This document shows positions 10,574 through 26,339 of a stretch of DNA of 27,558 nucleotides, one piece after another (position 1 is the stretch's first letter; the number at the start of each line of letters is the position of its first letter). This stretch comes from a virus, in UHGV virus genome UHGV-1805288. One strand, given 5' to 3'. The position numbers and the translations under genes were made by a program. The notes under the pieces are model-generated. The model made no database searches and had not been told where the DNA came from. It worked only from the letters and a program-made list of their open reading frames with translations.

Positions 10574-11673
10574 AAGACAATTCTTTCTTTAAATAATTGT
10601 AAAAATTTCTCTGGCCCTTCATCAATAGGACTAGCTTTATAGCTTGTTAACATATTCTTATCAAAAATAAATGAAATAATTACATCATTTTTAAACTTAC
10701 TTCTTATTTTAAGTAAATTATTTTTTAAATGCTTAAATTCTTTATCATCTATTTCTTGAAATTGTCTATCAAAAGCGATAATAATTTCTTCAGCTCCACA
10801 ATCCAAAAGCTCTTGAATTTGATAAACGGAGACCGCACTTCCGCAACAAGCAACTGAAATATTATTATTCCATCCAAAATAGCTCGCATATTTAAGAACT
10901 GACTTTTCTGATTCAAATATAATAGCTTTTTTCATAATTCCAATCACTCTTTTAGACCAATTTAATCCATATAGATTCATTCCAAGAGGGTGATTATAGA
11001 GAAGCTTATTAATGCGCAAAGGATAATATTTACCTCGATTTTCAGCTTCTTCTTGGCCCATTGTACGACCACGCAATCCTACAAATCGGTTATTAATATC
11101 ATAATGAGGAATCGTAATTGCATTATCTCCTGGATAAAATCCTATATGAGCATTGTCAATTACTAATTGAGAAATTTTTTCATCTAACCATGGCTATAAT
11201 TTTACTTTGTAATTAAATTTACTAAGAATATCAGAATTATATTCATTTAATATAACATGATTTTCTTTTACTTCTAATTCTTTAATATGAGAATATTTAG
11301 AAAATATTTTCCAATCTTCTAATTTTTCATCTTCGTCCTTTTGATATGAACCATTTAACCCAAATCGATGCGCAATCCACATAACCGCATCATTAAGGTC
11401 AAATTCTTTATCAAATTGGATTTTCATTACTTTAGTACATAACTCAAAAATATCAAATGAAGGGTCTTCACAACCAGTATAACAATGAAATAAATCAGTA
11501 TTTGTATAATAATATAATTTACGAGAACCAATACCAGGTAAATTATGACAAATTGTTGCGGAAACGACCCCGAATGAAGTGTATTGAGGGTCGCCTCCCC
11601 AGTCATTCAATAAATCATAAATATTTTCAATCGTTAATGATTTTCTAATTTCTGACTTATCGAATACTAACAT
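10570..11673 (-). CDS. DNA primase (N-terminal zinc-binding region plus TOPRIM domain)
   Basis: Track ORFs 11194..11673 and 10570..11076 share a frame and are joined through the single TAG at 11194..11196. N-terminus FHCYTGCEDPSFDIFELC is zinc-finger-like; TOPRIM-like IIFESEKSVLKYAS and IIIAFDRQFQEIDD. ATG 11673; stop TGA 10570..10572. Confidence 0.6.
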
Positions 11674-11840
11674 TAATAAATCAACACTCTCTCACAATTG
11701 TAAAGAAGGCCGCATTGTTCATTAACATAATCACAAAGAACCTTTTGAGGATTACTTGCAGCTCTCTTGCCAGCCATCTTCAAAATTTCATTAGCCATCT
11801 TCTCAGGCATCTTATATTCAATACTTCCACACTTTTTCAT
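11673..11840 (-). CDS. small Cys-containing hypothetical protein (55 aa)
   Basis: ATG 11840..11838 with AAAAGGAG upstream. Translation MKKCGSIEYKMPEKMANEILKMAGKRAASNPQKVLCDYVNEQCGLLYNCERVLIY. Stop TAA overlaps the primase ATG (TAATG). Confidence 0.45.
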   Translation of the reverse strand: MKKCGSIEYKMPEKMANEILKMAGKRAASNPQKVLCDYVNEQCGLLYNCERVLIY

Positions 11841-11862: not shown

Positions 11863-12135
11863 TTAAAAAGCGCTTTCTTCTTCTTGTAATCTAATTTTTA
11901 CATCATCAATTGGAACTAATTCGTATTGATAAGTAGTACAAAACAATGGTTTAATACGACAAGTGCCCAAATCTGCAGAACACCATAAATAAATACCTTT
12001 ATAACGTCCACGTCTATTTTTATAAACTGACATTTTAAGGTTTGGAGTAGCAAATACATTGGTATTTAATACTTTGTCTAATTTAACTAAATCATTATCA
12101 GTTACATTTAATAGAATTGCGCCATAATCTACTTT
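11863..12135 (-). CDS. dnaB: replicative DNA helicase DnaB-like, exon 2 (C-terminal 90 aa)
   Basis: Frame from 12135 reads KVDYGAILLNVTDNDLVKLDKVLNTNVFATPNLKMSVYKNRRGRYKGIYLW...EEESAF then TAA 11863..11865. It matches the DnaB C-terminal region (compare E. coli QDADLIMFIYRDE...IIGKQRNGPIGTVRL). Confidence 0.7.
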   Translation of the reverse strand, partial: KVDYGAILLNVTDNDLVKLDKVLNTNVFATPNLKMSVYKNRRGRYKGIYLWCSADLGTCRIKPLFCTTYQYELVPIDDVKIRLQEEESAF

Positions 12136-13315
12136 CTTTACTACCTTATATCTCTATAAGGAATAGACTATATCTTTACCATGCTTATTAAAATAAGTTT
12201 AGGTAGACCGTACTTCGAGATTAAATCTCTACTCTCCGCCACGAGATAGTCGTTGAACCTTGCTCTGTTCGAGCCTGGGCTGCGCTGGTTGCCTAATTCA
12301 TTTAATTTTTAAAACATTCACGCTTAGGTTTGTTTCATCCTTACGTTGTAGTTTAAATGACTCTAAAGGGTTTCCCGCAATTCTCGGTCTGATAATCACT
12401 TGACGTTTCCATCAAGGACGACTGTTTCCAAAATTTTATATAATTCATATTTTCTATCTAGATGAATTTTACAAGAATCGTATAGTTGTTTTAATATATA
12501 ATAAGGTTTATTAGTACCACCACAGCGAATATAATAACTATTTTTATTATCATTAGCATTACGTTTTTCTAATTTTACCTCCCAATTTAATATACTACAT
12601 ATCCATAATAATAATTCTTGGGTTCCTTGAATACTAATAGTAAAATTATTATATTGAGATGTTTTTGAAATACTTCCATCTCCATCAAAATATCCTAAAA
12701 TGAATGGTAAATAAAATTCTTCAGAAATAATGGGAGGTTTTAGTATTAAACTTTTTCTTGGTACAATTCCTTTATTACTTAAATCATTAGACATTTTTTT
12801 GCTATTAAGAGTTAAGCGAGCCATTGGAGTATTATTAGAATAACCCTCATTTATAATATACGAATTAATTTTAGCATTTGTATTACAAAACTTCTAAAAT
12901 TTTTTTAAATGGGAAATATCTTTCTAATTGATATTAATTATAATTGAAGCATTATGTTCTCTTACATAATTACATCCATCAGCAGCCAAAAATCCTAGCC
13001 AATAAGCTTTTTCAGATGTATCAATTATTTCAAAAATATCATAATTTCCATTATATTTCTATGTGCGTTCTCGTAAAATAATATTTTCTTTATTTTCATC
13101 TAAAATACGTTTAATAGTTTTACGAGAAACCTAATAATAATCTCCAAGTTTTTGCTATGTCCAATTATTATTATATTTAGTTAATATATCATTAATTTGT
13201 TCTTGTGAAAATTCAATTTTTCTCATAGTTATCGCTCCTGTAATAGATTAAGGGATTATCCTCTAATCTATTTAAAAAACGATATAAATGAATTATAAAA
13301 TTTTGTCCAATCAGC
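12136..13315 (-). mobile_element. group I intron in dnaB, carrying a LAGLIDADG homing endonuclease ORF
   Basis: P-like AAUUGCGGGAAACCC (rc of 12368..12382). R-like CAACGACUAUCUCG (rc of 12242..12255) pairs with S-like AAGAUAUAGUC (rc of 12166..12176) as P7 GACUAU/AUAGUC. P9 hairpin CCUUAUA-GAGA-UAUAAGG (12144..12161). Candidate omega-G at 12136. Junction placed where exon 1 ...LRGAKSI joins exon 2 KVDYGAILL... to recreate the DnaB LRxSGSIEQDADL region. The 5' splice site is the least certain part (P1 lacks a U-G pair); boundaries could shift a few nt. Confidence 0.65.
12396..13226 (-). CDS. intron-encoded LAGLIDADG homing endonuclease (two motifs)
   Basis: ATG 13226..13224 with AGGAG upstream. 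Translation contains KAYWLGFLAADGCNYV and LPFILGYFDGDGSISK. Five in-frame TAG (13155, 13131, 13059, 12924, 12894); stop TGA 12396..12398. Track ORF 12396..12824 is its C-terminal piece. Confidence 0.85.
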
Positions 13316-14569
13316 AATAGATTTCGCTCCTCGCAATAAATTCTGGTCTGGAGTTTCTGAATCGACATATCCACCATTAAGCTGCGTTGCTGACATAATA
13401 AATATACCATATTGATTACATAAGTCTTTTAATTTTACAGATAACATAAATAGAATATTATCTTCACGGAGTTTAACTCCACCACTACGACGAGTAATTT
13501 CTTCAAGAATTTTCATACTTGTTTGAATATAATCAAAGAAAATATACTTTACATCATGGTCACGTAGAGCTTTTTTAATTTCATTCTCTACGTCCTATAA
13601 TGAAAAATCTGGTAGCTCTCGTAAATATAGAGGACTGTCTTTAATAATTTCCGCGGCCTTGTGAATACGTTCTTCTTCATCACCCTCATAAGTATTATTA
13701 AGAATATGTTCTTCATTTACATTAGCAAGAAACGCAAGCATCATAGTTTGCACTTCACTCTTATCTTGCTCTGTGGCGATAAATAAAACCGGTTCACTCA
13801 AACCATTATGAATCCATCCAAATGTTTCATCATAAATTTTATTACAAGCAATATAGCATGCATCTGCAACCATAGAACGAGTCTTACCAGTACCAGTAGC
13901 TGCGGACCGCAAATAAAATTTCTTTAATCGCGCACCACGAGTAATTGTATTTACCAATGGCCCATATAATGGACTTCCTGCTTCTGGATGTTCTTTAAGA
14001 TTATCTAATAGATCAAAGATTCCATCACCCGCTTGAATGGCCGCACCATCTACATTTTTTACATATTCATACTTAACTTCTTCAATTCTATCATCTACTA
14101 ATTGCGCTAAATGTTCTAATGAAGAGTTATCAAGATTATCTTCTTGCTTTTGTTTTTTTTCTACATCAAGAATATTATCAGGGTCATAAATAAATGATAC
14201 GTCAATACCATATTTATCATAAGCCCGTAACAATGACATTTTTTTCAAACGATTATAATAATAATCAAATGATAATAATTTAGCATTTTCAGAAACTTTC
14301 ATTAACCATTCTTCGCCTTTATTAGCATTAAAAATGCCTTCATATTTAGGGCGAGTAGATAAAAAATCAAGAATATTTTCTAATGAAACTTTCTCAGCGC
14401 CCAATTCATGAAGTTTATAAATAGCGCCAAAAACAATACGATGAAAATCATCATTAAAATCTTCATCAGTAATTACATATTTATCTGTATAATCCAATAG
14501 CTGGGGTGTGTTATATACACACCCTATAACTTGGGTGACAGCGGTAGAATCTACATATTTACTTCCCAT
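13316..14569 (-). CDS. dnaB: replicative DNA helicase DnaB-like, exon 1
   Basis: Track ORFs 13595..14593 and 13268..13516 share a frame, joined through TAG 13595..13597. Walker A LRSAATGTGKTRSMVADACYIA; H2-like KYIFFDYIQTS; ATQLNGG...NLLRGAKSI. Start most likely the ATG at 14569 (MGSKYVD...) with GAGGAGG 9 nt upstream. Exon 1 + exon 2 = 1527 nt = 509 codons. Confidence 0.8.
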
Positions 14570-15134
14570 CCGCGGGCGCCTCCTCTTCATCAAGGAATGA
14601 AAATAATTTTCTGCGATATGGTTGTCGCTTTGGTAGAGGAATAACTATTTCTATTACTTTTGGAACGTATTGTTGAATTTCTTTATCTTCATTTACTTGA
14701 TGAGCTAACCATAAATCGTAATAATAATTATAACTATCTTTATAAATATAGGGCACAATACCAATTCCGCCATTAGATTTTTCGATAGAATTGCCTTTTA
14801 CTTCATAAAAATATTTTAATGCTTTTAAAATACCAGAATAAGTATATTTATATTCATTAACATATTGATTAATCTATTTGCGAATCCGCGGATTAAGATA
14901 TTCCACTTGAAATAATTTCATAATATATTTTTCTAATTTCTTTTTATCTTCTTCTTCCTATTGAGCTTGTTCAATAGATTTTTTTTCAGCGGCGAGTTTT
15001 TCTAAATATTCTGGCTAATATTCAGGATGTTCACAATTGGTATGTGCATATCTATTACTACGAGGTTTAATATATTGATAAACTTCAGTATCAAATGTTT
15101 GCTAACAATAAAGACATTTTACATTGTGTGCTAT
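14559..15134 (-). CDS. hypothetical protein with N-terminal C2HC zinc-finger-like motif, just upstream of and overlapping dnaB (position suggests a helicase accessory role); start codon unresolved
   Basis: Frame open from TAA at 15138..15140 to TAA at 14559..14561 apart from 5 in-frame TAG. Translation (I)AHNVKCLYC-TAG-QTFDTEVYQYIKPRSNRYAHTNCEHPEY...YIYKDSYNYYYDLW...EEAPADGK. No in-frame ATG/GTG/TTG lies between the upstream stop and the first Cys; ATA at 15134..15132 sits 7 nt after AAAGGAGGAA. Track ORF 14559..14756 is its C-terminus. Confidence 0.5.
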
Positions 15135-15157
15135 AAATTATTCCTCCTTTCTTATAT

Positions 15158-15186
15158 ATTATAACATATTTTTCAAAAAAAATCAA
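15158..15186 (-). promoter_or_regulatory. sigma70-type promoter (TTGATT-N17-TATAAT, TG-extended -10)
   Basis: Plus strand attata 15158..15163 and aatcaa 15181..15186, 17-nt spacer; minus strand reads ...TGTTATAAT. Lies immediately upstream of the zinc-finger/dnaB/primase gene string. Confidence 0.55.
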
Positions 15187-15218
15187 CCCAAAGCGATTTT
15201 AGGGTCGCTCTGGGTTGA
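15183..15218 (-). terminator. rho-independent terminator after the Sak4-like gene
   Basis: Arms tcaacccaaagcga / tcgctctgggttga (14 bp, one G-U), 8-nt loop, followed on the minus strand by U8 (rc of aaaaaaaa at 15173..15180). Confidence 0.65.
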
Positions 15219-15233
15219 TAAAATCTATTTTAA

Positions 15234-16232
15234 TTAACCCTTATTAAGTTGAGGAAGAAGGTCTTCCTTCATTTCAGTTACAATCAAGCTAATAAATTCA
15301 GCTTGATCCATGGTAGCATCAGAAACTTTCTTACCTTTACCCAAGTATTTATCAACAATTTGAGTAATACGAGGAGCAAAGAAATTAGGATTCTTATTCA
15401 TCATCTGACCAGTTAGCTCTTGGAACTCATTAATAAGAGCATCATAGTCATAAGATTTAGCGACCTCAGCAACTTCACGTTCATTAGTAACATACTTATT
15501 ATCGTGCATAGCGGCTTCCTTATCAATAGCATCATTAAGAGCCTTAACAAGATTATCATAAGTAAATTCAATCACAGGAGTAATATACTTAAAACGACAA
15601 CCAGTCTCAGCGCTATTGTCAGGAGAACGAAGAACAAGTCTCACCTTAGCTTCACCATTCTCAGTATACTTTTCAGCATAAGCATAAATGTCAGCCATGT
15701 CCTTAGCAATGTTATTATAAGAAGTAGGACAAGTAGGAACAATTTGGTTATACTCAATACCATTCTTATTCTTAAAGGTCTTATCCTTAGAGTGAGAAAT
15801 AAAAACAACAGCATAACCAAGTTGAGTAATTGTGCGGAAAGTCTCTTCAAATTCCTTCTTTACTAAAGTCCAACCTTGACCATAAGGAATACCAGAAAGC
15901 GCATCTACACCATTCTATGAACAAATATATTTCTCACAAAGACCGCCAGCAACATCAACAGTATCAACTGCAATAGACTTAAATCTCTCTTTAACTTCTG
16001 GCTTTTTAAGTTCACGCAAAACCTGCTTCATTTCACCCCAGGTAGTAACATCCTGAGCAAAAACACCAGGCAAAGCATTATAACCTTTCTCAAACGCCAG
16101 AATCAGCGGACTTGGCATATGAGAAGCAAATGTAGTCTTACCACTTTTCTCAGCACCATAAACATAGGTAATATAACCAGAAAGGTCTCTACTAACTTTA
16201 TGGGGCTAAATAGACATTAAATCAATACCCAT
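15234..16232 (-). CDS. Sak4-like / AAA_24-type RecA-fold ATPase (recombination protein), tentative
   Basis: Track ORFs 15915..16118 and 15234..15698 share a frame; full frame open from ATG 16232 (GGAG upstream) with 2 in-frame TAG (16206, 15915). Walker A YVYGAEKSGKTTFA followed by ILAFEKGYNALPGV...VTTWGE...IAVDTVD. Confidence 0.5.
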
Positions 16233-16234
16233 TA

Positions 16235-16399
16235 TTAATTCTCCTTATTATTTTCATCATTAATTATAAAAGCTTCACATTGTTTTAATAAAATATCTAC
16301 TATTTCCTATTGTTTTATATCAAAAGCAATATCATTAAATAAATTTAATTTAGCACGTTGGCCCCTAATGGGGCCATCGTCTTCAAGTGGTAAATTCAT
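16235..16399 (-). CDS. possible small ORF (54 aa) between the SSB-like gene and the Sak4-like gene; may be non-coding
   Basis: ATG at 16399..16397 directly after a TAATAA double stop. Translation MNLPLEDDGPIRGQRAKLNLFNDIAFDIKQ-TAG-EIVD...; it contains the GC hairpin ggcccc-taat-ggggcc (16360..16375), so this may be a terminator rather than a gene. Confidence 0.2.
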
Positions 16400-16402
16400 T
16401 TA

Positions 16403-17341
16403 TTAGAAATTAAAGCCACCAGCTGCAGGAGCCGCAATATTACTCTGACGAGAAGCCTTATACTCATCTTGACGTTGTTTAATAGTAGCAAGATAAGTCT
16501 GACGCTCAGTCATGGCCTAATTAAGCTCAGCTGCAGTAATAAAGTTTTCATCATCCCAAGGATAAGGTTCCTTGGCACCACCAGTAATTACAAAATCCTT
16601 ACGAGTGCTCTGAACCTCACGAACACTATCATCACCAAAAGCGGACTCCTCACGCTCAATACGCTTAATCACTTCAGAAATCTGACGACCCCAAACCTTA
16701 GTGAAAACAGGCTCAGAGTTAGTAGCACCAAGTCCCTCATAATAAGCCATAGCGCCCTCAGAAGTCGCGCTAAATTCAACGGGGAGTAGAGCCTTACGGA
16801 AATCAAAAATAGCGCCACGCACAATAACCTTTTCAGGAAGATTGCGCTCCTCATTAGCATCAATATGAGAAACATTAGTAATAATCATATCACACTTAAA
16901 AGTATTACGCTGATCTTCGGTGACAAGTTCAGCAGGATTATTGATAATATGAACAAATCCACCCTCATTACGCTTAGTACTTACAAGCTCTTCCTTACCA
17001 TTACGATCAGAATAGAACTCATTAAGGCCAATAGCAGAATCAACACGAATAAGAGCAGCTTTATCAGCTCCATCCTTCATATAAGTGCCAATAGCTCCAT
17101 CAATAATATTGCGAAGAGTGCTATAAGTAGCATTAGCACTTCCCTTTGCAGTAGTCGCAGTTACATAAGTAAAATGAACCTACACAATATTAGTAACATT
17201 ATCATCAGTAGCAATACTAATTGTACCACTAATAAAAGGAGTACCAGGATTCTTAGAATTAGGACCACTTTCCTTGGCAGTCAAATCATGCTCGTAAAGA
17301 ATGCCTTCAATATGAGTTGTATTAGTAATTGTCTTCATCAT
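16403..17341 (-). CDS. hypothetical protein (313 aa); possibly an ssDNA-binding or annealing partner of the Sak4-like ATPase
   Basis: Track ORF 16517..17080 extends through TAG 16517 and TAG 17180 to ATG 17341 (AAGGAGA upstream) and stop TAA 16403..16405. Ends ...AAPAAGGFNF. No motif I can name with confidence; the function is a guess from gene neighbourhood only. Confidence 0.3.
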
Positions 17342-17416
17342 AATATTATATTTCTCCTTAAATTTAAATCAAATTAACTTCAATAAAATTTTCTAATTCT
17401 TAATTACTATATTTAT

Positions 17417-17445
17417 ATTATAAAATATTTTTTTAGAATTGTCAA
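17417..17445 (-). promoter_or_regulatory. sigma70-type promoter, perfect TTGACA-N17-TATAAT
   Basis: Plus strand attata 17417..17422 and tgtcaa 17440..17445, 17-nt spacer; about 75 nt upstream of the ATG at 17341. Confidence 0.6.
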
Positions 17446-17447
17446 AT

Positions 17448-18083
17448 TTAATTTACTAAAAACTCTCGCGCATATGGTAATGTTTCAATCCAATCACAAA
17501 ATGCTCGCCATTCAGGTAAGCGATGATCATGGCGCTATTTATAAATATTGCGCAAACAACGATAATTTGTAGTCATACGCGCGGTAAGTCTAAATCCAGC
17601 AGGATTAGAATAAAGAATTTCAAGATATCTACGTTTTGCTTCTTCTTGTAGCTAATTCCGTAGATTTTCATCTTCTGGACCAAGAGCTTCAATACGAGAA
17701 ATGAGATTGTTGTAATCATTTACCTTTTCTCGCATAATATCAATAATGCGCTTATCCACATATTCGATATACTATTGATCTAAATCAAACTTAGTAATGC
17801 GGTGCATTGTTGATTGAGAAGAAACAAATTCAAGGAATCTATATCGCTCAGCTTCTACCCATGCTTTATTAGTAAAACAAAGGTCAAAATTGACTCGAAT
17901 ACCAGTCAGAAACTAATGATGTGCGGTATTACCAGTTTTCGTAGCATTTACTAAACGAACACCACGCTAGATATCCTTATCTTCTATAGGACGCATTTCA
18001 GCTTTTGTACGCATAGGATAACCAGAAGCAATAATGCTTTCTTCAAGGTCATAAATTTTTACATTGGATACAATCTAATTCAT
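17448..18083 (-). CDS. thyX: possible flavin-dependent thymidylate synthase (ThyX-like), tentative
   Basis: ATG 18083 with GAGG 6 nt upstream; frame open to TAA 17448..17450 apart from 6 in-frame TAG. Weak resemblance to ThyX blocks: KAWVEAERYRFLEFVSSQSTMHR (compare RQWFRHRIASYNELSGRY) and TNYRCLRNIYKQRHDHRLPEW (compare [20 protein letters not shown]). Confidence 0.35.
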
Positions 18084-18090
18084 TTATACC

Positions 18091-19065
18091 TCACTTAATA
18101 CTATAACCAAATTCTTTAGCTTTAAAATAATTCTACCAATAATCTTCTCGTGTATCAAGCTCTTCACGAGAACATTCTTCGATTACTTCAAAACTAAAAT
18201 TTTCAACTCCAAGAGCTAACATAGCAGGATAAAGTTTATTGCGGGTTGGCGTTTCCGCTCCAATACCACGCTTGATATGCTACTTCCATCTTGCTGCCAG
18301 GTCAACAGCCTATCCTACATAGCACATTTGGTTATCAAGATTAGTAATCTTATAAATACCAGTATGAGTTCCTGAACCAATTACTCGACCAATTAAATCA
18401 GTTGTTGGTTTTTCATAATAACTTTTCCAAATAACTTTATTTAATGTTTCTTTATCGCGTAAATGAGGTTCAATTGACCGTAGTAGTTTAATTTCTTCAA
18501 TATCCACAGATGATAACTATAATTTATAAAAATTAGCTTGATTTTTAATTTCTTCAGTACGTTTAGCTGCTTCAATAGCCGCGTCAACTTCACGAGTTAA
18601 TTTAAAAATCTTATCATCTAAAACTTCTAATTCTCTTTGTTTCTCTTGGATTAAATTTACTAAATCTTCTGAGCAACCAGCCATCAAGTTTTTATAACTA
18701 GATTTATAATCTTGTTTAGCCTACTCATATTTACTTTCTTCTAGCTCTAAATCGTGTGCGATATTAGTTCTAGCTAATTCCATAGACTATTTAAAAAATA
18801 CTTCCGCTGATTGCTTGGCCTAGTTTTGTAATAGGTCTAGACTATTAGAAACTTCTTCTCTTTGAATCTTTAATGAACTTAACTCTTTTGTGAGAGTTTC
18901 TTTTTCATCAACTAGTTGTTTATTAAAATTGTATAACTAACGATTCTCTGTTTCGATTTTCTAATCGTATCGCTGTGTTAATTTTAATTTGGGGCGTAAA
19001 ATTAAATACATTAATACACATCCAAGAATTAATGCGATACTACCTACAATTAAATAAATAGTCAT
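18091..19065 (-). CDS. protein with N-terminal transmembrane helix, coiled-coil middle and C-terminal GIY-YIG-like nuclease domain (DUF4041/T5orf172-like architecture)
   Basis: ATG 19065; frame open to TGA 18091..18093 apart from 9 in-frame TAG. N-terminus MTIYLIVGSIALILGCVLMYLILRP is hydrophobic; middle is K/E-rich heptad-like; C-terminus THTGIYKITNLDNQMCYVG-TAG-AVDLAARWK...REDYW-TAG-NYF. Track ORF 18310..18507 is an internal piece. Confidence 0.5.
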
Positions 19066-19077
19066 ATCTAATAAAAT

Positions 19078-19097
19078 GGGGCAGATTACTCTGCCCC
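19078..19097 (-). terminator. terminator hairpin
   Basis: ggggcaga-ttac-tctgcccc (8-bp GC-rich stem) after the stop at 19118, followed on the minus strand by AUUUUAUUAGAU. Confidence 0.55.
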
Positions 19098-19117
19098 ATA
19101 ATTAATCTATGTTTAAA

Positions 19118-19387
19118 TTACTCAGCATCAGTGGCATCAGGGTCAAAAGCCATGCCAGCCTCGGTCAAGCTCAGAAGCTTGATGGGCTTGTGAGAACCAT
19201 CCTCAAGCTCCATCTCAGCGGGAGTGCGAATGCCAAGACCCTTGCGCTGAATAGCAGAGGTAAAAATACCATCAACAGAACGCTTCTCGAGACCGAGAGC
19301 AGCAGCAACATCAGCGGCGGTCACATCCTGACCCTAAACACTCTTCAAATATTCAAAAACCTTACGAGAATTTTCCTTCATAGCCAT
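19118..19387 (-). CDS. small winged-helix-like DNA-binding protein (89 aa), GC-rich gene
   Basis: Track ORF 19118..19324 extends through TAG 19334..19336 to ATG 19387. Translation MAMKENSRKVFEYLKSV-TAG-GQDVTAADVAAALGLEKRSVDGIFTSAIQRKGLGIRTP... Stop TAA 19118..19120. Base composition is visibly more GC-rich than the flanks. Confidence 0.45.
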
Positions 19388-19453
19388 AATAAATAAATCT
19401 CCTTAATAAAAATAAAATTTTAATTTTTAAGCATTTCTTTTGCTTATGTAAAC

Positions 19454-19482
19454 ATTATATCAAAAATTTTTTTATTTGTCAA
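19454..19482 (-). promoter_or_regulatory. sigma70-type promoter, perfect TTGACA-N17-TATAAT
   Basis: Plus strand attata 19454..19459 and tgtcaa 19477..19482, 17-nt spacer; the -35 overlaps the last codons of the upstream small gene. Confidence 0.6.
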
Positions 19483-19672
19483 GTGCTTTACCAAGAATGT
19501 CTTGAACCATTTCGTCAATGATAATAGTATCTTCCAAACAACTTACATGACTAGTTAAATCCATAATATCTAGCTCTGCTTGCCGGATTTTTGACTTATC
19601 ATCACTAGTCTAAATGGTCAATTCAGCTTGAGCAATCTTCTTAGCTAAGTTCTTGAGTTCTTTCTTTTTCAT
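19472..19672 (-). CDS. small hypothetical protein (66 aa), coiled-coil-like
   Basis: ATG 19672..19670; translation MKKKELKNLAKKIAQAELTI-TAG-TSDDKSKIRQAELDIMDLTSHVSCLEDTIIIDEMVQDILGKALDK. Stop TAA 19472..19474. Confidence 0.4.
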
Positions 19673-19705
19673 CTAAAAAATTTCATCCTTAATTTTTACA
19701 AATAT

Positions 19706-19734
19706 ATTATATCACAAATTTTTTATTTTGTCAA
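19706..19734 (-). promoter_or_regulatory. sigma70-type promoter, perfect TTGACA-N17-TATAAT (TG-extended -10)
   Basis: Plus strand attata 19706..19711 and tgtcaa 19729..19734, 17-nt spacer; the -35 overlaps the ligase stop codon. Confidence 0.6.
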
Positions 19735-25782: not shown

Positions 25783-25811
25783 ATTATACCATAAATTTAA
25801 AAATTTGTCAA
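25783..25811 (-). promoter_or_regulatory. sigma70-type promoter, perfect TTGACA-N17-TATAAT, upstream of the RNase H-gyrB-gyrA string
   Basis: Plus strand attata 25783..25788 and tgtcaa 25806..25811, 17-nt spacer. Confidence 0.6.
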
Positions 25812-25834
25812 ATTTTATTGAGCTACAATAAAAT

Positions 25835-25863
25835 TTGACAGAAGGAAAAATTTTCAGTATAAT
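25835..25863 (+). promoter_or_regulatory. plus-strand sigma70-type promoter, perfect TTGACA-N17-TATAAT, back-to-back with the minus-strand promoter
   Basis: Plus strand ttgaca 25835..25840 and tataat 25858..25863, 17-nt spacer. No protein-coding ORF follows on the plus strand. Confidence 0.5.
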
Positions 25864-25907
25864 AAGAAATAAGAGAAGAATGTAGATAAGATTTATAATT
25901 ATTAACT

Positions 25908-25963
25908 AAGAGAAAACAAAATTGGGGTCATAACTACGTTATGACCCAATTTTGTTTTCTCTT
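25908..25963. terminator. long near-perfect hairpin, probable bidirectional terminator
   Basis: About 27-bp stem with one bulged G and a 3-nt loop, centred near 25936. It overlaps the holin-like stop codon (25962..25964); the 3' arm is U-rich when read on either strand. Confidence 0.6.
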
Positions 25964-26339
25964 AGATGGTTGGCTCGTCTTCTTCAGCCTCTGTATTTAC
26001 TTCATATTCAATATCAGTATCAGTAGTCGCTTCATCATCAGTATAATAACCAGAATTATTACGATAATTTTCATAAGCAAGGTCTAATTCTCGCATCACT
26101 GATTCATATTTTACACCATCTTTAGCATTTTCAACAGTTGATTTCTTATAATAATAAACTTGACTTACACCATAAGCAGCCCAAGGAAGGCTAGCGCTAG
26201 CAGTAAGCCAAGGAAGAGAACCAATATAACCACTATAAATACAATAAAATGCCAAAGCAATATAAGCTAGTGTAGAAATCCAAATTAATGCAGATTCTTG
26301 AATTAAAAGAGTTTTTGAAAACTCAAGTTTCTTTTTCAT
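25962..26339 (-). CDS. holin-like small membrane protein (two predicted transmembrane segments, acidic C-terminal tail)
   Basis: Track ORF, 125 aa. Hydrophobic stretches LIWISTLAYIALAFYCIY and SLPWLTASASLPWAAYGV; tail rich in D/E. ATG 26339 lies 2 nt after the endolysin stop, with the SD (AGGAGG) inside the endolysin's last codons. Confidence 0.45.
   Translation of the reverse strand: MKKKLEFSKTLLIQESALIWISTLAYIALAFYCIYSGYIGSLPWLTASASLPWAAYGVSQVYYYKKSTVENAKDGVKYESVMRELDLAYENYRNNSGYYTDDEATTDTDIEYEVNTEAEEDEPTI

What the first reader, a model, noticed from the sequence alone, without database searches (positions are those of the whole stretch)
15234..19387. GC-rich genes embedded in the AT-rich genome
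By eye the Sak4-like gene plus the adjacent 313-aa gene (15234..17341), and separately the 89-aa winged-helix gene (19118..19387), are clearly richer in G and C than their surroundings, with many C-ending codons such as GCC, CTC, ACC. This could mean recent horizontal acquisition of a recombination module and a regulator, or selection for host-preferred codons in highly expressed genes. I did not compute windowed GC or codon usage.
Basis: seen in the sequence. Interest (0 to 1): 0.45.

Follow-up and report, generated by a model that had tools for sequence, protein, structure and literature searches.

The report
Codon-optimised abundant-protein genes in phage
The "GC-rich" genes are real but ordinary: in this AT-rich gut phage that reads TAG as glutamine, the genes for a DNA-coating protein (SSB), its recombination partner (Sak4) and a small DNA-binding protein use the same special codon set as the capsid and tail genes, which is the usual mark of heavily expressed genes and does not indicate foreign DNA.

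Summary
The GC excess is real. The 89-aa gene has GC 0.49, the 312-aa gene 0.40 and Sak4 0.36, against 0.32 for the window. The cause is not base composition. About half comes from amino-acid content. The rest comes from one codon dialect: Lys/Glu/Gln/Leu/Arg codons end in G (52-90% vs 17%), and four-fold boxes switch from A to T. C and G at four-fold sites are not raised, and UTRs stay AT-rich.

In 56-80 related phage contigs the same families keep the dialect, although synonymous sites are saturated. Gene order is fixed, and SSB and the wHTH co-diverge with DnaB. Recent acquisition is therefore rejected. Only Sak4 shows allele swapping within the clade.

About 45 kb away, the major tail protein and two head proteins carry the same dialect, as does a flotillin-like gene. 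All of these genes avoid TAG. The best reading is expression-linked codon selection in abundant-protein genes, a known phenomenon. The host is unknown, so host CAI could not be tested.

The parts
19118..19387 (-). 89-aa gene for a minimal winged-helix (wHTH) protein with an acidic C-terminal tail. It is the strongest compositional outlier: GC 0.493, GC3 0.461, NNR boxes 89% G-ending, no A at four-fold sites, and one in-frame TAG at codon 18.
   Evidence: AF2 pLDDT 88.3 with H-H-H-E-E topology. Foldseek best matches are MepR/MarR wHTH cores, E 9e-4, TM 0.65-0.70. 2970 homologues in the metagenome protein collection, the 120 best listed being 79-100% identical. 330 clusters at 50% identity. It is the most conserved family in the region, 81% mean identity.
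19454..19482 (-). Perfect sigma-70 consensus promoter (TTGACA-17-TATAAT with an extended TG) driving the 89-aa gene. A strong AAGGAG Shine-Dalgarno follows.
   Evidence: six perfect sites in the window vs 0.05 expected. A match of 11/12 or better is present within 150 nt upstream in 51 of 60 distinct relatives; control genes reach at most 9-10.
19076..19099 (-). Intrinsic terminator directly after the 89-aa gene stop, closing a monocistronic unit.
   Evidence: 10-bp stem with 6 GC pairs and a T-run. A hairpin plus T-run is conserved in 53 of 55 distinct relatives.
17417..17445 (-). Perfect sigma-70 consensus promoter upstream of the SSB-Sak4 unit.
   Evidence: It is less conserved in relatives: the best score is 11/12 in 4 and 10/12 in 8 of 46.
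16403..17341 (-). 312-aa tandem-OB single-stranded-DNA-binding protein (Pfam PF27337 'YorF' family, phrog_2367) with the C-terminal tail ...AAGGFNF. GC 0.397, NNR boxes 72.5% G-ending, four-fold A 10%, two in-frame TAGs.
16235..16399 (-). 54-aa AT-rich ORF (GC 0.26) between SSB and Sak4. It has no homologue in the 80 related loci and lies at the apparent recombination junction.
15234..16232 (-). 332-aa Sak4-like RecA-core ATPase / ssDNA annealing protein. GC 0.362, NNR boxes 52% G-ending, four-fold A 7% and T 81%, two in-frame TAGs.
   Evidence: PF13479 AAA_24 E 3.9e-38. phrog_124 'Sak4-like ssDNA annealing protein' E 9.5e-51. Codon data. Allele mosaicism.
15182..15219 (-). Strong intrinsic terminator (15-bp stem plus T-run) directly after Sak4, closing the SSB-Sak4 unit.
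   Evidence: Conserved after Sak4 in 36 of 44 relatives, vs 1 of 57 after SSB and 1 of 45 after DnaB.
11673..11840 (-). 55-aa gene of unknown function that shares the codon dialect (GC3 0.345, NNR 10 G vs 8 A).
   Evidence: In 56 relatives NNR-G is 0.49 and CAG makes up 73% of Gln codons.
19472..19672 (-). 66-aa gene upstream of the wHTH gene, with its own perfect promoter (19706-19734). The dialect is only weak here (GC3 0.318).
   Evidence: The promoter scores 11/12 or better in 42 of 53 relatives.

Best explanation
The flagged genes encode proteins the phage needs in stoichiometric, large amounts: a tandem-OB SSB that coats ssDNA, its Sak4 annealing partner, and a small winged-helix DNA binder. 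Their elevated GC is a by-product of two things. The first is amino-acid composition (Ala, Gly, Asp, Glu and Thr-rich, conserved proteins). The second is selection for a specific set of efficiently translated codons: NNT in four-fold boxes (GCT, GGT, GTT, ACT, TCT, CCT, CTT, CGT) and NNG for Lys, Glu and Gln (AAG, GAG, CAG). A-ending codons and the reassigned TAG are avoided. This is the phage's 'abundant-protein dialect', and its major tail and head proteins and a flotillin-like protein use the same one.

Shown: the codon pattern, its gene specificity, its conservation across the clade despite saturated synonymous sites, its presence in virion genes, the protein folds, and the promoter and terminator signals. 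Inferred: that these proteins are highly abundant, and that the preferred codons match the tRNA pool available in the unknown host (probably a member of the Clostridia).
For: (1) The shift is codon-specific and not compositional. In NNR boxes G-ending is 52%, 72.5% and 89.5% vs 17% (p 1e-11 to 1e-17). At four-fold sites A is 7.8% vs 30.2% and T is 76% vs 51%, while C is unchanged and G is lower. The leaders inside the units have GC 0.12-0.15.

(2) Roughly half of the 89-aa gene's excess is amino-acid driven: observed 0.498, amino-acid-expected 0.404, background 0.318.

(3) In 56-80 related loci, the wHTH, SSB, Sak4 and 55-aa families are the only ones among those with homologues there whose NNR-G stands clearly above the locus background, together with low four-fold A: NNR-G 0.47-0.73 vs 0.25, and A4 0.125-0.23 vs 0.31. 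This holds although four-fold p-distances among homologues are 0.44-0.55, which is near saturation. The bias is therefore actively maintained.

(4) Among 81 genes (79 kb of coding sequence) from the window plus near-identical contigs, only Sak4, SSB, a Band_7/flotillin-like protein, the 327-aa virion structural protein next to the tape measure, and the 307- and 369-aa head-module proteins pass strict dialect criteria. The wHTH makes seven. Gene GC correlates with NNR-G (rho 0.65) and with four-fold A (rho -0.70). Terminase, portal, tape measure, baseplate and fibre genes sit at background.

(5) The same three virion families are the highest for this dialect among 22-29 further relatives.

(6) TAG makes up 8.7% of Gln codons in dialect genes vs 33.9% elsewhere (p 7e-8). 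Across relatives it is 0-3%.

(7) The units have perfect consensus promoters, AAGGAG ribosome-binding sites and terminators, and for the wHTH gene these are conserved across the clade.

(8) The protein identities fit a stoichiometric role.
Against: No expression or proteomic data were available, so abundance is inferred from function and from analogy with the virion genes.

The host is unknown. The MAG bins that carry these contigs are taxonomically scattered, so neither CAI nor tAI against the host could be computed.

The usual bacterial hallmark of translational selection, NNC preferred over NNT for Phe, Tyr, Asn and Ile, is absent in SSB and Sak4 (10-15% vs 12%) and only mild in the other dialect genes (21-27%).

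Perfect promoters also precede genes without the dialect, such as Pol III alpha and RNase H, so promoter strength does not separate the classes.

The Sak4 dialect varies by allele, with NNR-G ranging from 0.15 to 0.79 among relatives.

The 369-aa 'major capsid' assignment rests on position, size and a structural annotation in one distant homologue. It has no fold or Pfam support.
Confidence: 0.75

Rival explanations
1. Recent horizontal acquisition: the recombination module and the wHTH regulator came from a GC-richer donor and have not yet drifted to the AT-rich composition of the genome.
For: The genes are the GC maxima of the window. Sak4 does show discordant ancestry. Relatives with the closest DnaB (82-83%) and SSB (79%) have a Sak4 only 56% identical, while a lineage with DnaB 80% and SSB 71% has a Sak4 84-85% identical. 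Sak4 distances correlate only 0.29-0.35 with every other family. A lineage-specific 54-aa ORF sits at the SSB/Sak4 junction.
Against: All 80 relatives have a GC-rich wHTH gene (0.385-0.514 vs flank mean 0.33). Synteny is identical in 48 of 48 loci, and SSB and the wHTH co-diverge with DnaB and primase (rho 0.63-0.82). Four-fold sites are saturated, yet the pattern persists. Four-fold C and G are not raised, and the leader regions upstream of the 312-aa and 89-aa genes, as well as the 54-aa ORF inside the block, are AT-rich. A foreign GC-rich origin would raise all of these. The same pattern occurs in capsid and tail genes about 45 kb away. The Sak4 exchange is between members of the same AT-rich clade.
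Confidence: 0.04
2. Temporal tRNA supply: these genes are translated early, before phage-encoded tRNAs (including the TAG suppressor) accumulate, so they must use the host's codons. The dialect would then mark timing and not abundance.
For: The dialect genes are TAG-poor. They have host-type sigma-70 consensus promoters. Published work proposes that early genes of recoded phages stay in the standard code (bioRxiv 10.1101/2021.08.26.457843).
Against: Late virion genes carry the same dialect while embedded among TAG-rich late genes: the 327-aa tail protein and the 307- and 369-aa head proteins. Gyrase A and B and ligase are TAG-free and probably early, yet they have background codon usage (NNR-G 0.17-0.24). 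No tRNA genes were found in any of the fetched loci scanned, including about 62 kb of this phage and its near-identical relatives, so the phage tRNA repertoire is unknown.
Confidence: 0.07
3. mRNA-level or mutational cause: avoidance of third-position A protects these messages from A/U-targeting RNases or improves stability, or heavy transcription imposes a strand-specific mutation bias (G+T enrichment on the coding strand).
For: The unifying feature is loss of A at third positions, with gain of T and G on the coding strand. The AT-skew of the + strand turns positive exactly over these genes.
Against: At four-fold sites only T rises, while G falls (4.6% vs 7.6%) and C is flat. Neither a general A-avoidance nor an A-to-G mutational bias would produce that, but it matches the NNT-type optimal codon sets of bacteria. 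Leu shifts from TTA to CTT and Arg from AGA to CGT, which are changes between codon families. The transcribed leaders remain 85-88% A+T with 42-48% A.
Confidence: 0.1
4. A hidden structured RNA or RNA gene overlaps the 89-aa ORF and raises its GC.
For: GC islands in AT-rich genomes are often RNA genes, and the interval is short (270 nt) and highly conserved.
Against: No Rfam family reaches the gathering score and no tRNA is found. The folding energy z-score is -0.15 vs shuffles. Four-fold sites diverge to about 0.5 while the protein stays 81% identical, which shows the constraint is on the protein. The AF2 model is confident.
Confidence: 0.01

Closest known systems
Expression-linked codon bias in phage genes.
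   Same: A small set of abundant-protein genes uses a distinct, restricted codon set. The set is shared between virion genes and non-virion abundant proteins. It is maintained over long divergence.
   Different: Here it shows up as apparent 'GC islands' because the genome is 32% GC and the preferred Lys, Glu and Gln codons end in G. NNC over NNT preference is weak or absent. The reassigned TAG codon behaves as a disfavoured codon. The match to the host is untested.
YorF family (Pfam PF27337, named after Bacillus prophage SPbeta YorF) and two-OB-per-chain SSBs of the Thermus/Deinococcus type
   Different: Identity to SPbeta-group and Enterococcus phage homologues is only 27-29%. A profile search found no PDB sequence match. 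ssDNA binding and the role of the ...GGFNF tail are inferred.
Sak4 (phage RecA-core-only ssDNA annealing protein that works with a cognate SSB)
   Same: AAA_24 domain and phrog_124. A Walker A motif (GAEKSGKT) is visible in the sequence. The gene lies directly downstream of an SSB gene in one promoter-terminator unit.
   Different: At 332 aa it has a C-terminal extension of about 130 residues beyond the AAA_24 match (residues 22-194). Alleles are exchanged among clade members. Activity is untested.
MarR-type winged-helix DNA-binding domains (for example MepR)
   Same: Three helices followed by a beta-hairpin wing. The best structural matches are MarR-family cores.
   Different: At 89 aa it lacks the N- and C-terminal dimerisation helices of MarR proteins. 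There is no Pfam MarR or HTH hit. It has an acidic tail. Some relatives are tandem duplications of 162-166 aa. It is codon-optimised like a structural protein, which is unusual for a specific repressor.
Code-15 (TAG to Gln) recoded gut phages, including the phAss-1 group
   Same: In-frame TAGs align with Gln in relatives. The head-module protein is 50% identical to a phAss-1 protein. That group is predicted to infect Clostridia (PMC10607447).
   Different: The genome is about 188 kb and 32% GC, vs 136 kb and 44.5% GC for phAss-1. No suppressor tRNA was found in the parts of the genome scanned for tRNAs (about 62 kb). Many replication genes are TAG-rich, while the most abundant late proteins are TAG-poor.

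Membership tests
Horizontally acquired compositional island | Composition deviates at all site classes, including four-fold sites and non-coding DNA of the segment | tested here: not met
   Four-fold C is 11.6% vs 11.1% and G is 4.6% vs 7.6%. The leaders have GC 0.12-0.15 and the embedded 54-aa ORF has GC 0.26.
Horizontally acquired compositional island | Patchy presence or discordant phylogeny relative to neighbouring core genes | tested here: not met
   The wHTH and SSB are present and syntenic in 76-80 of 80 loci, and their distances correlate 0.63-0.82 with DnaB and primase. Sak4 alone is discordant (rho about 0.3; allele swap shown).
Translationally selected (highly expressed) gene set | A restricted codon set shared with independently known abundant-protein genes of the same genome | tested here: met
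   The same NNG/NNT dialect occurs in the 327-aa virion structural protein (phrog_2729), the 307- and 369-aa head-module proteins and a flotillin-like protein. 74 other genes sit at background.
Translationally selected (highly expressed) gene set | The bias is maintained although synonymous sites have turned over | tested here: met
   Four-fold p-distances are 0.44-0.55 among homologues, and the dialect is retained in 56-80 relatives.
Translationally selected (highly expressed) gene set | Preferred codons match the host's abundant tRNAs and its ribosomal-protein codon usage (CAI/tAI) | not testable with these tools
   The host is unresolved. Eleven MAG contigs carrying the phage are binned to scattered taxa.
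Translationally selected (highly expressed) gene set | NNC preferred over NNT for Phe, Tyr, Asn and Ile (the common bacterial hallmark) | tested here: inconclusive
   The C fraction in NNY boxes is 10-15% in SSB and Sak4 and 21-27% in the wHTH, tail, head and flotillin-like genes, against 12% background.
Sak4-like annealing proteins | RecA-core AAA_24 domain with a Walker A motif | tested here: met
   PF13479 E 3.9e-38 (27-bit cutoff, 131.7 bits). phrog_124 E 9.5e-51. GAEKSGKT is visible in the sequence.
Sak4-like annealing proteins | SSB-stimulated ssDNA annealing activity | not testable with these tools
   Only the adjacency to an SSB gene in one transcription unit could be shown.
SSB / YorF family | OB-fold ssDNA-binding domain(s); Pfam PF27337 | tested here: met
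SSB / YorF family | C-terminal protein-interaction tail ending in an aromatic residue | tested here: inconclusive
   The tail ...AAPAAGGFNF is disordered in the model, and the two Phe are invariant. It is not acidic like the canonical DDDIPF tail.
MarR-family transcription regulators | wHTH core plus flanking helices that form the dimer interface; Pfam MarR hit | tested here: not met
   The wHTH core matches, but the protein is only 89 aa with no flanking helices and has no Pfam MarR or HTH hit.
Code-15 recoded phage | In-frame TAG at positions that are Gln in homologues | tested here: met
   Across 39 TAG positions, Q is the commonest aligned residue (532; the next is K at 157). At conserved sites the counts are, for example, 47 Q + 14 TAG.
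Code-15 recoded phage | Phage-encoded suppressor tRNA(CUA) | tested here: inconclusive
   No tRNA was found in the window, in 40 related loci or in the flanking contigs, but about half of the genome was not seen.

The most novel reading that the evidence does not exclude
The codon dialect may be a sequence-only read-out of protein abundance in this uncultured, TAG-recoded phage clade. Read that way, it singles out the 89-aa winged-helix protein as a very abundant DNA-binding protein, such as a phage nucleoid or 'histone-like' coat or a global switch factor, and not an ordinary repressor. That protein is the most conserved family in the region, has its own consensus promoter and terminator cassette, is as codon-optimised as the capsid protein, and belongs to no described family. 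The dialect also suggests that the reassigned TAG codon is translationally costly and is purged from the most expressed genes, late virion genes included. This would refine the view that recoding mainly marks late genes.
Probability: 0.3. Interest if true: 0.45.

Novelty: already known. Interest (0 to 1): 0.27.

Why it matters
The main value is as a caution and a tool. In very AT-rich phage genomes, local GC peaks can come from codon optimisation and amino-acid content of abundant-protein genes. They should not be read as horizontal transfer without checking four-fold sites and relatives. The dialect gives a cheap way to rank likely protein abundance in uncultured recoded phages. Here it points to an uncharacterised, highly conserved 89-aa winged-helix protein and a phage flotillin-like protein as candidates for abundant, functionally important factors. 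It also shows that TAG-as-Gln is disfavoured in the most expressed genes. The underlying phenomenon itself is textbook.

Tried and rejected
DNA similarity to GenBank phages for 14900-19700 gave only two short weak hits. tblastn of the 89-aa protein against GenBank phages found nothing, so relatives had to come from IMG/VR and metagenome collections.

The whole-window Rfam gathering search and ARAGORN found nothing. RNA folding of the 89-aa gene is unremarkable, so the RNA-gene idea was rejected.

Host identification through the genome collection failed.

The 'early-gene / host-tRNA timing' idea was dropped as the main cause once late tail and head genes showed the same dialect.

I also considered that avoiding codons read by U34 tRNAs protects against anticodon nucleases, prompted by an RNA-ligase, kinase and phosphoesterase trio upstream. 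It has no supporting evidence, and the shared use of the dialect by virion genes is explained more simply.

tRNA scans of 46 loci found none, so the phage tRNA repertoire is unknown.

Literature searches for YorF and for Clostridial optimal codons returned nothing usable.

Pfam gave no hit for the 369-aa and 327-aa virion proteins, and the phAss-1 record annotates the homologue only as hypothetical. The capsid assignment therefore remains positional.

My automatic ORF filter twice picked the 95-aa antisense shadow ORF (19109-19396, + strand) instead of the 89-aa gene.

Full report
**Genome context.** The window is 27,558 bp with 31.9% GC. All credible genes lie on the minus strand. Under the standard bacterial code the ORF map is fragmented. 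Treating TAG as a sense codon raises ORF coverage (ORFs of at least 100 aa) from 18.7 to 27.3 kb and gives a near gapless gene array. At the 39 in-frame TAG positions of the window that have homologues, Gln is by far the commonest aligned residue: 532 cases, with Lys next at 157, and conserved sites such as 47 Q + 14 TAG. This is therefore a code-15 (TAG to Gln) phage genome. The genes form an SPbeta-like replication module: Pol III alpha, a RecJ-like exonuclease, primase, DnaB, an AAA_24 protein and YorF. Gyrase A and B, ligase, RNase H, an amidase and several homing endonucleases are also present. The window matches a 188,073-bp metagenomic contig.

**Checking the observation.** The GC excess is real.
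- 15234-17341 has GC 0.369, against 0.316 ± 0.017 (max 0.349) for all other windows of equal size.
- 19118-19387 has GC 0.493, against 0.318 ± 0.046 (max 0.470).
- Per gene, the 89-aa gene has GC 0.493 and GC3 0.461, the 312-aa gene 0.397 and 0.256, and Sak4 0.362 and 0.256. Typical genes have GC 0.31-0.34 and GC3 about 0.19.
- Conditioning on each protein's amino-acid sequence and the background synonymous usage, these three genes have the three highest synonymous-GC z-scores in the window: 3.8, 4.8 and 6.5.
- For the 89-aa gene about half of the excess comes from amino-acid composition (expected 0.404 vs background 0.318) and half from codon choice (observed 0.498).
- Sak4 alone is only at about the 96th percentile.
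- The 54-aa ORF inside the block (GC 0.26) and the leader regions upstream of the 312-aa and 89-aa genes (GC 0.12-0.15) are AT-rich. The property therefore belongs to individual coding sequences and not to a region.

**What the excess consists of.** It is not general GC enrichment, and except in the 89-aa gene it is not C-ending codons.
- In the purine-ending two-fold boxes (Lys, Glu, Gln, Leu-TTR, Arg-AGR) the G-ending codon is used in 52% (Sak4), 72.5% (312-aa) and 89.5% (89-aa) of cases, against 17% in the rest of the window (Fisher p 1e-11 to 1e-17).
- At four-fold sites A falls from 30.2% to 7.8% (p 5e-22) and T rises from 51% to 76% (p 5e-19). C is unchanged (11.6% vs 11.1%) and G is lower (4.6% vs 7.6%).
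- Leu shifts from TTA to CTT and Arg from AGA to CGT.
- NNY boxes show no significant C preference.

The preferred set is GCT, GGT, GTT, ACT, TCT, CCT, CTT, CGT, AAG, GAG and CAG. A foreign GC-rich origin or a mutational A-to-G bias would raise G and C at four-fold sites and in the leaders, and neither is seen.

**What the genes are.**
- 15234-16232 is Sak4-like (PF13479 AAA_24, E 3.9e-38; phrog_124, E 9.5e-51).
- 19118-19387 is a confident minimal winged helix (pLDDT 88.3). Its best matches are MarR-type cores, but it lacks their dimerisation helices and has no Pfam or PHROG assignment.
- The wHTH family has 2970 members in the metagenome protein collection, the 120 best listed being 79-100% identical, and 330 clusters at 50% identity, some of them tandem duplications. 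It is the most conserved family in the region, at 81% mean identity.

**Transcription signals.** The window holds six perfect TTGACA-N17-TATAAT promoters, where 0.05 are expected. One lies directly upstream of the 89-aa gene, one upstream of the SSB gene and one upstream of the 66-aa gene. Intrinsic terminators follow the 89-aa gene and Sak4. The units are therefore [P-wHTH-T] and [P-SSB-54aa-Sak4-T].

Across relatives the wHTH promoter scores 11/12 or better in 51 of 60 distinct upstream regions, while control genes reach at most 9-10. Its terminator is present in 53 of 55, and the terminator after Sak4 in 36 of 44. Perfect promoters also precede Pol III alpha and RNase H, so promoter strength alone does not define the codon class.

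**Testing horizontal acquisition.**
- Eighty IMG/VR loci carry the wHTH gene. In every one it is GC-richer than its 20-kb flank (mean 0.466 vs 0.330).
- The wHTH, SSB, Sak4 and 55-aa (11673-11840) families keep the dialect across 56-80 loci (NNR-G 0.47-0.73 vs 0.25; four-fold A 0.125-0.23 vs 0.31). None of the other families with homologues there shows that combination.
- Four-fold p-distances among homologues are 0.44-0.55, close to saturation for such biased sites. The pattern is therefore being maintained and not merely inherited.
- Gene order and strand are identical in 48 of 48 loci that hold all the compared families. Pairwise distances of the wHTH and SSB correlate with DnaB and primase (rho 0.63-0.82).
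- Recent acquisition is rejected for these two genes.
- Sak4 is different. Its distances correlate only about 0.3 with everything. The lineage closest in DnaB (82-83%) and SSB (79%) has a Sak4 only 56% identical, whereas a lineage with DnaB 80% and SSB 71% has a Sak4 84-85% identical. So Sak4 alleles are exchanged within the clade, with a junction near the lineage-specific 54-aa ORF. The donors are equally AT-rich phages, and the Sak4 dialect varies by allele (NNR-G 0.15-0.79).

**Testing the expression hypothesis.** The host could not be identified, because MAG bins holding these contigs are scattered across taxa. I therefore used the phage's own abundant-protein genes as the reference.

Near-identical contigs extend the window on both sides. 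I then walked along an IMG/VR relative 97-99% identical, which reached the late module. It contains terminase (phrog_2), portal (phrog_2739), head proteins, connectors, a 327-aa virion structural protein (phrog_2729) just before the chaperone and a 3114-aa tape-measure protein, then hub, baseplate and giant fibre genes.

| Gene | GC | NNR-G | Four-fold A |
|---|---|---|---|
| 327-aa tail protein | 0.426 | 0.73 | 0.04 |
| 307-aa head-module protein | 0.415 | 0.72 | 0.06 |
| 369-aa head-module protein | 0.444 | 0.78 | 0.03 |
| 466-aa Band_7/flotillin-like protein (about 4 kb beyond the window's right end) | 0.46 | 0.77 | 0.11 |

Terminase, portal, tape measure, baseplate and fibre genes are at background (NNR-G 0.11-0.35).

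Over 81 genes (79 kb of coding sequence) only six pass strict criteria, and the wHTH makes seven. Gene GC correlates with NNR-G (rho 0.65) and inversely with four-fold A (rho -0.70). The three virion families are also the highest in 22-29 further relatives. Because late virion genes share the dialect, it marks abundance and not early timing. Gyrase and ligase are TAG-free but have ordinary codon usage.

**TAG usage.** TAG accounts for 8.7% of Gln codons in the dialect genes and 33.9% elsewhere (p 7e-8). Across relatives it is 0-3% in the wHTH, SSB, Sak4 and 55-aa families, where CAG is 50-90%. The reassigned codon behaves as a disfavoured codon in abundant-protein genes.

**Other alternatives.** No Rfam family, no tRNA and no unusual folding energy (z -0.15) support an overlapping RNA in the 89-aa gene. 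The 95-aa plus-strand ORF at 19109-19396 is an antisense shadow of the GC-rich gene. An mRNA-stability or transcription-linked mutational cause cannot be fully excluded. It is disfavoured because only T rises at four-fold sites, not G, and because the leaders stay A-rich.

**Relation to known systems.** The SSB has 27-29% identical homologues in SPbeta-group Bacillus phages, in roughly 140-kb Enterococcus phages and in the TAG-recoded gut phage phAss-1. The 369-aa head protein is 50% identical to a phAss-1 protein and 42% identical to the Enterococcus phage proteins. The phAss-1 paper places that wider group on Clostridia (PMC10607447). Published surveys of recoded phages describe standard-code early genes and recoded late genes (bioRxiv 10.1101/2021.08.26.457843). 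Here the most abundant late proteins are the exception.

**Verdict.** Recent horizontal acquisition is not supported, apart from within-clade allele exchange of Sak4, which does not explain the composition. What remains of interest is the uncharacterised, apparently abundant 89-aa winged-helix protein and the purging of TAG from highly expressed genes.

Noticed in passing
whole window: The genome uses TAG as a sense codon (Gln). Standard-code ORFs are fragmented, TAG-as-sense gives a near gapless minus-strand gene array, and TAG positions align mainly with Q in relatives. TAG-free genes are the Pol III alpha C-terminal part, ligase, gyrase A and B, and the small genes at 10394-10573, 11673-11840, 11863-12033 and 25962-26339. 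No suppressor tRNA is present in the window.
   Followed up: yes
window 11863-14590 (-): The DnaB helicase gene is split. 13256-14590 and 11863-12033 match one contiguous ORF in relatives. The insertion holds a low-GC endonuclease ORF (12396-13226, 5 TAGs) and a group I intron core (RF00028 at 12144-12441, 59.9 bits, E 2.7e-14). The whole-window gathering search had not reported the intron.
   Followed up: partly
window 306-5310 (-): Pol III alpha is encoded in two pieces: 2926-5310 (PHP, pol3_alpha and finger domains) and 306-1730 (HHH_6). A very AT-rich GIY-YIG homing endonuclease gene (1912-2730, GC 0.234) separates them. This is probably another intron or a split gene. NrdD looks similarly interrupted in the relative L116.
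   Followed up: no
window 25783-25863: A divergent pair of perfect consensus promoters. The minus-strand promoter drives RNase H. The plus-strand promoter (25835-25863) points antisense towards the holin-like gene 25962-26339 and the amidase gene, and runs into a long perfect hairpin at about 25906-25955. This could be a short antisense or small RNA controlling lysis genes.
   Followed up: no
L084 4624-6024 (about 4 kb beyond the window's right end): A 466-aa phage-encoded Band_7/SPFH flotillin-like protein with an N-terminal TM segment and a long Ala/Lys/Glu coiled coil. It is the GC-richest large gene seen (0.46), carries the full abundant-protein codon dialect and has no TAG.
   Followed up: partly
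L084 1-4380 (upstream of the window in near-identical contigs): An RNA-ligase-like gene, an AAA_33/KTI12 kinase gene and a Metallophos_2 phosphoesterase gene lie together, an arrangement resembling tRNA-repair sets. A PhoH-PIN protein and a T7 gp5.9-like protein are nearby.
   Followed up: no
window 15234-16399 and loci L019, L032: Sak4 alleles are swapped among otherwise collinear relatives (56% vs 85% identity, opposite to the DnaB and SSB ranking). The 54-aa ORF 16235-16399 at the SSB/Sak4 junction has no homologue in 80 related loci.
   Followed up: partly
pooled about 79 kb of coding sequence (window, L084, L085, L116, L177-L181): TAG is strongly depleted in the abundant-protein genes (8 of 92 Gln codons vs 338 of 997 elsewhere). 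This includes late head and tail genes that are surrounded by TAG-rich late genes, such as the tape-measure gene with 86 TAGs.
   Followed up: yes
window 18091-19065 (-): Directly downstream of the wHTH terminator lies a 324-aa protein with an N-terminal TM helix, a long coiled coil and a C-terminal GIY-YIG nuclease domain, carrying 9 TAGs. It is conserved in 76 of 80 relatives, so it is not a typical sporadic homing endonuclease.
   Followed up: no
window 1912-2730, 10079-10573, 12396-13226, 6730-6960: These genes deviate the opposite way, being more AT-rich than their amino-acid content predicts (synonymous z -2.2 to -3.9). Two are homing endonucleases. They are better candidates for recently arrived mobile DNA than the GC-rich genes.
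   Followed up: partly
window 5540-6730 (-): The RecD-like helicase gene is fairly GC-rich (0.365) but lacks the codon dialect (NNR-G 0.09, 8 TAGs). Its GC comes mostly from amino-acid composition, which shows that gene GC alone does not identify the dialect class.
   Followed up: partly
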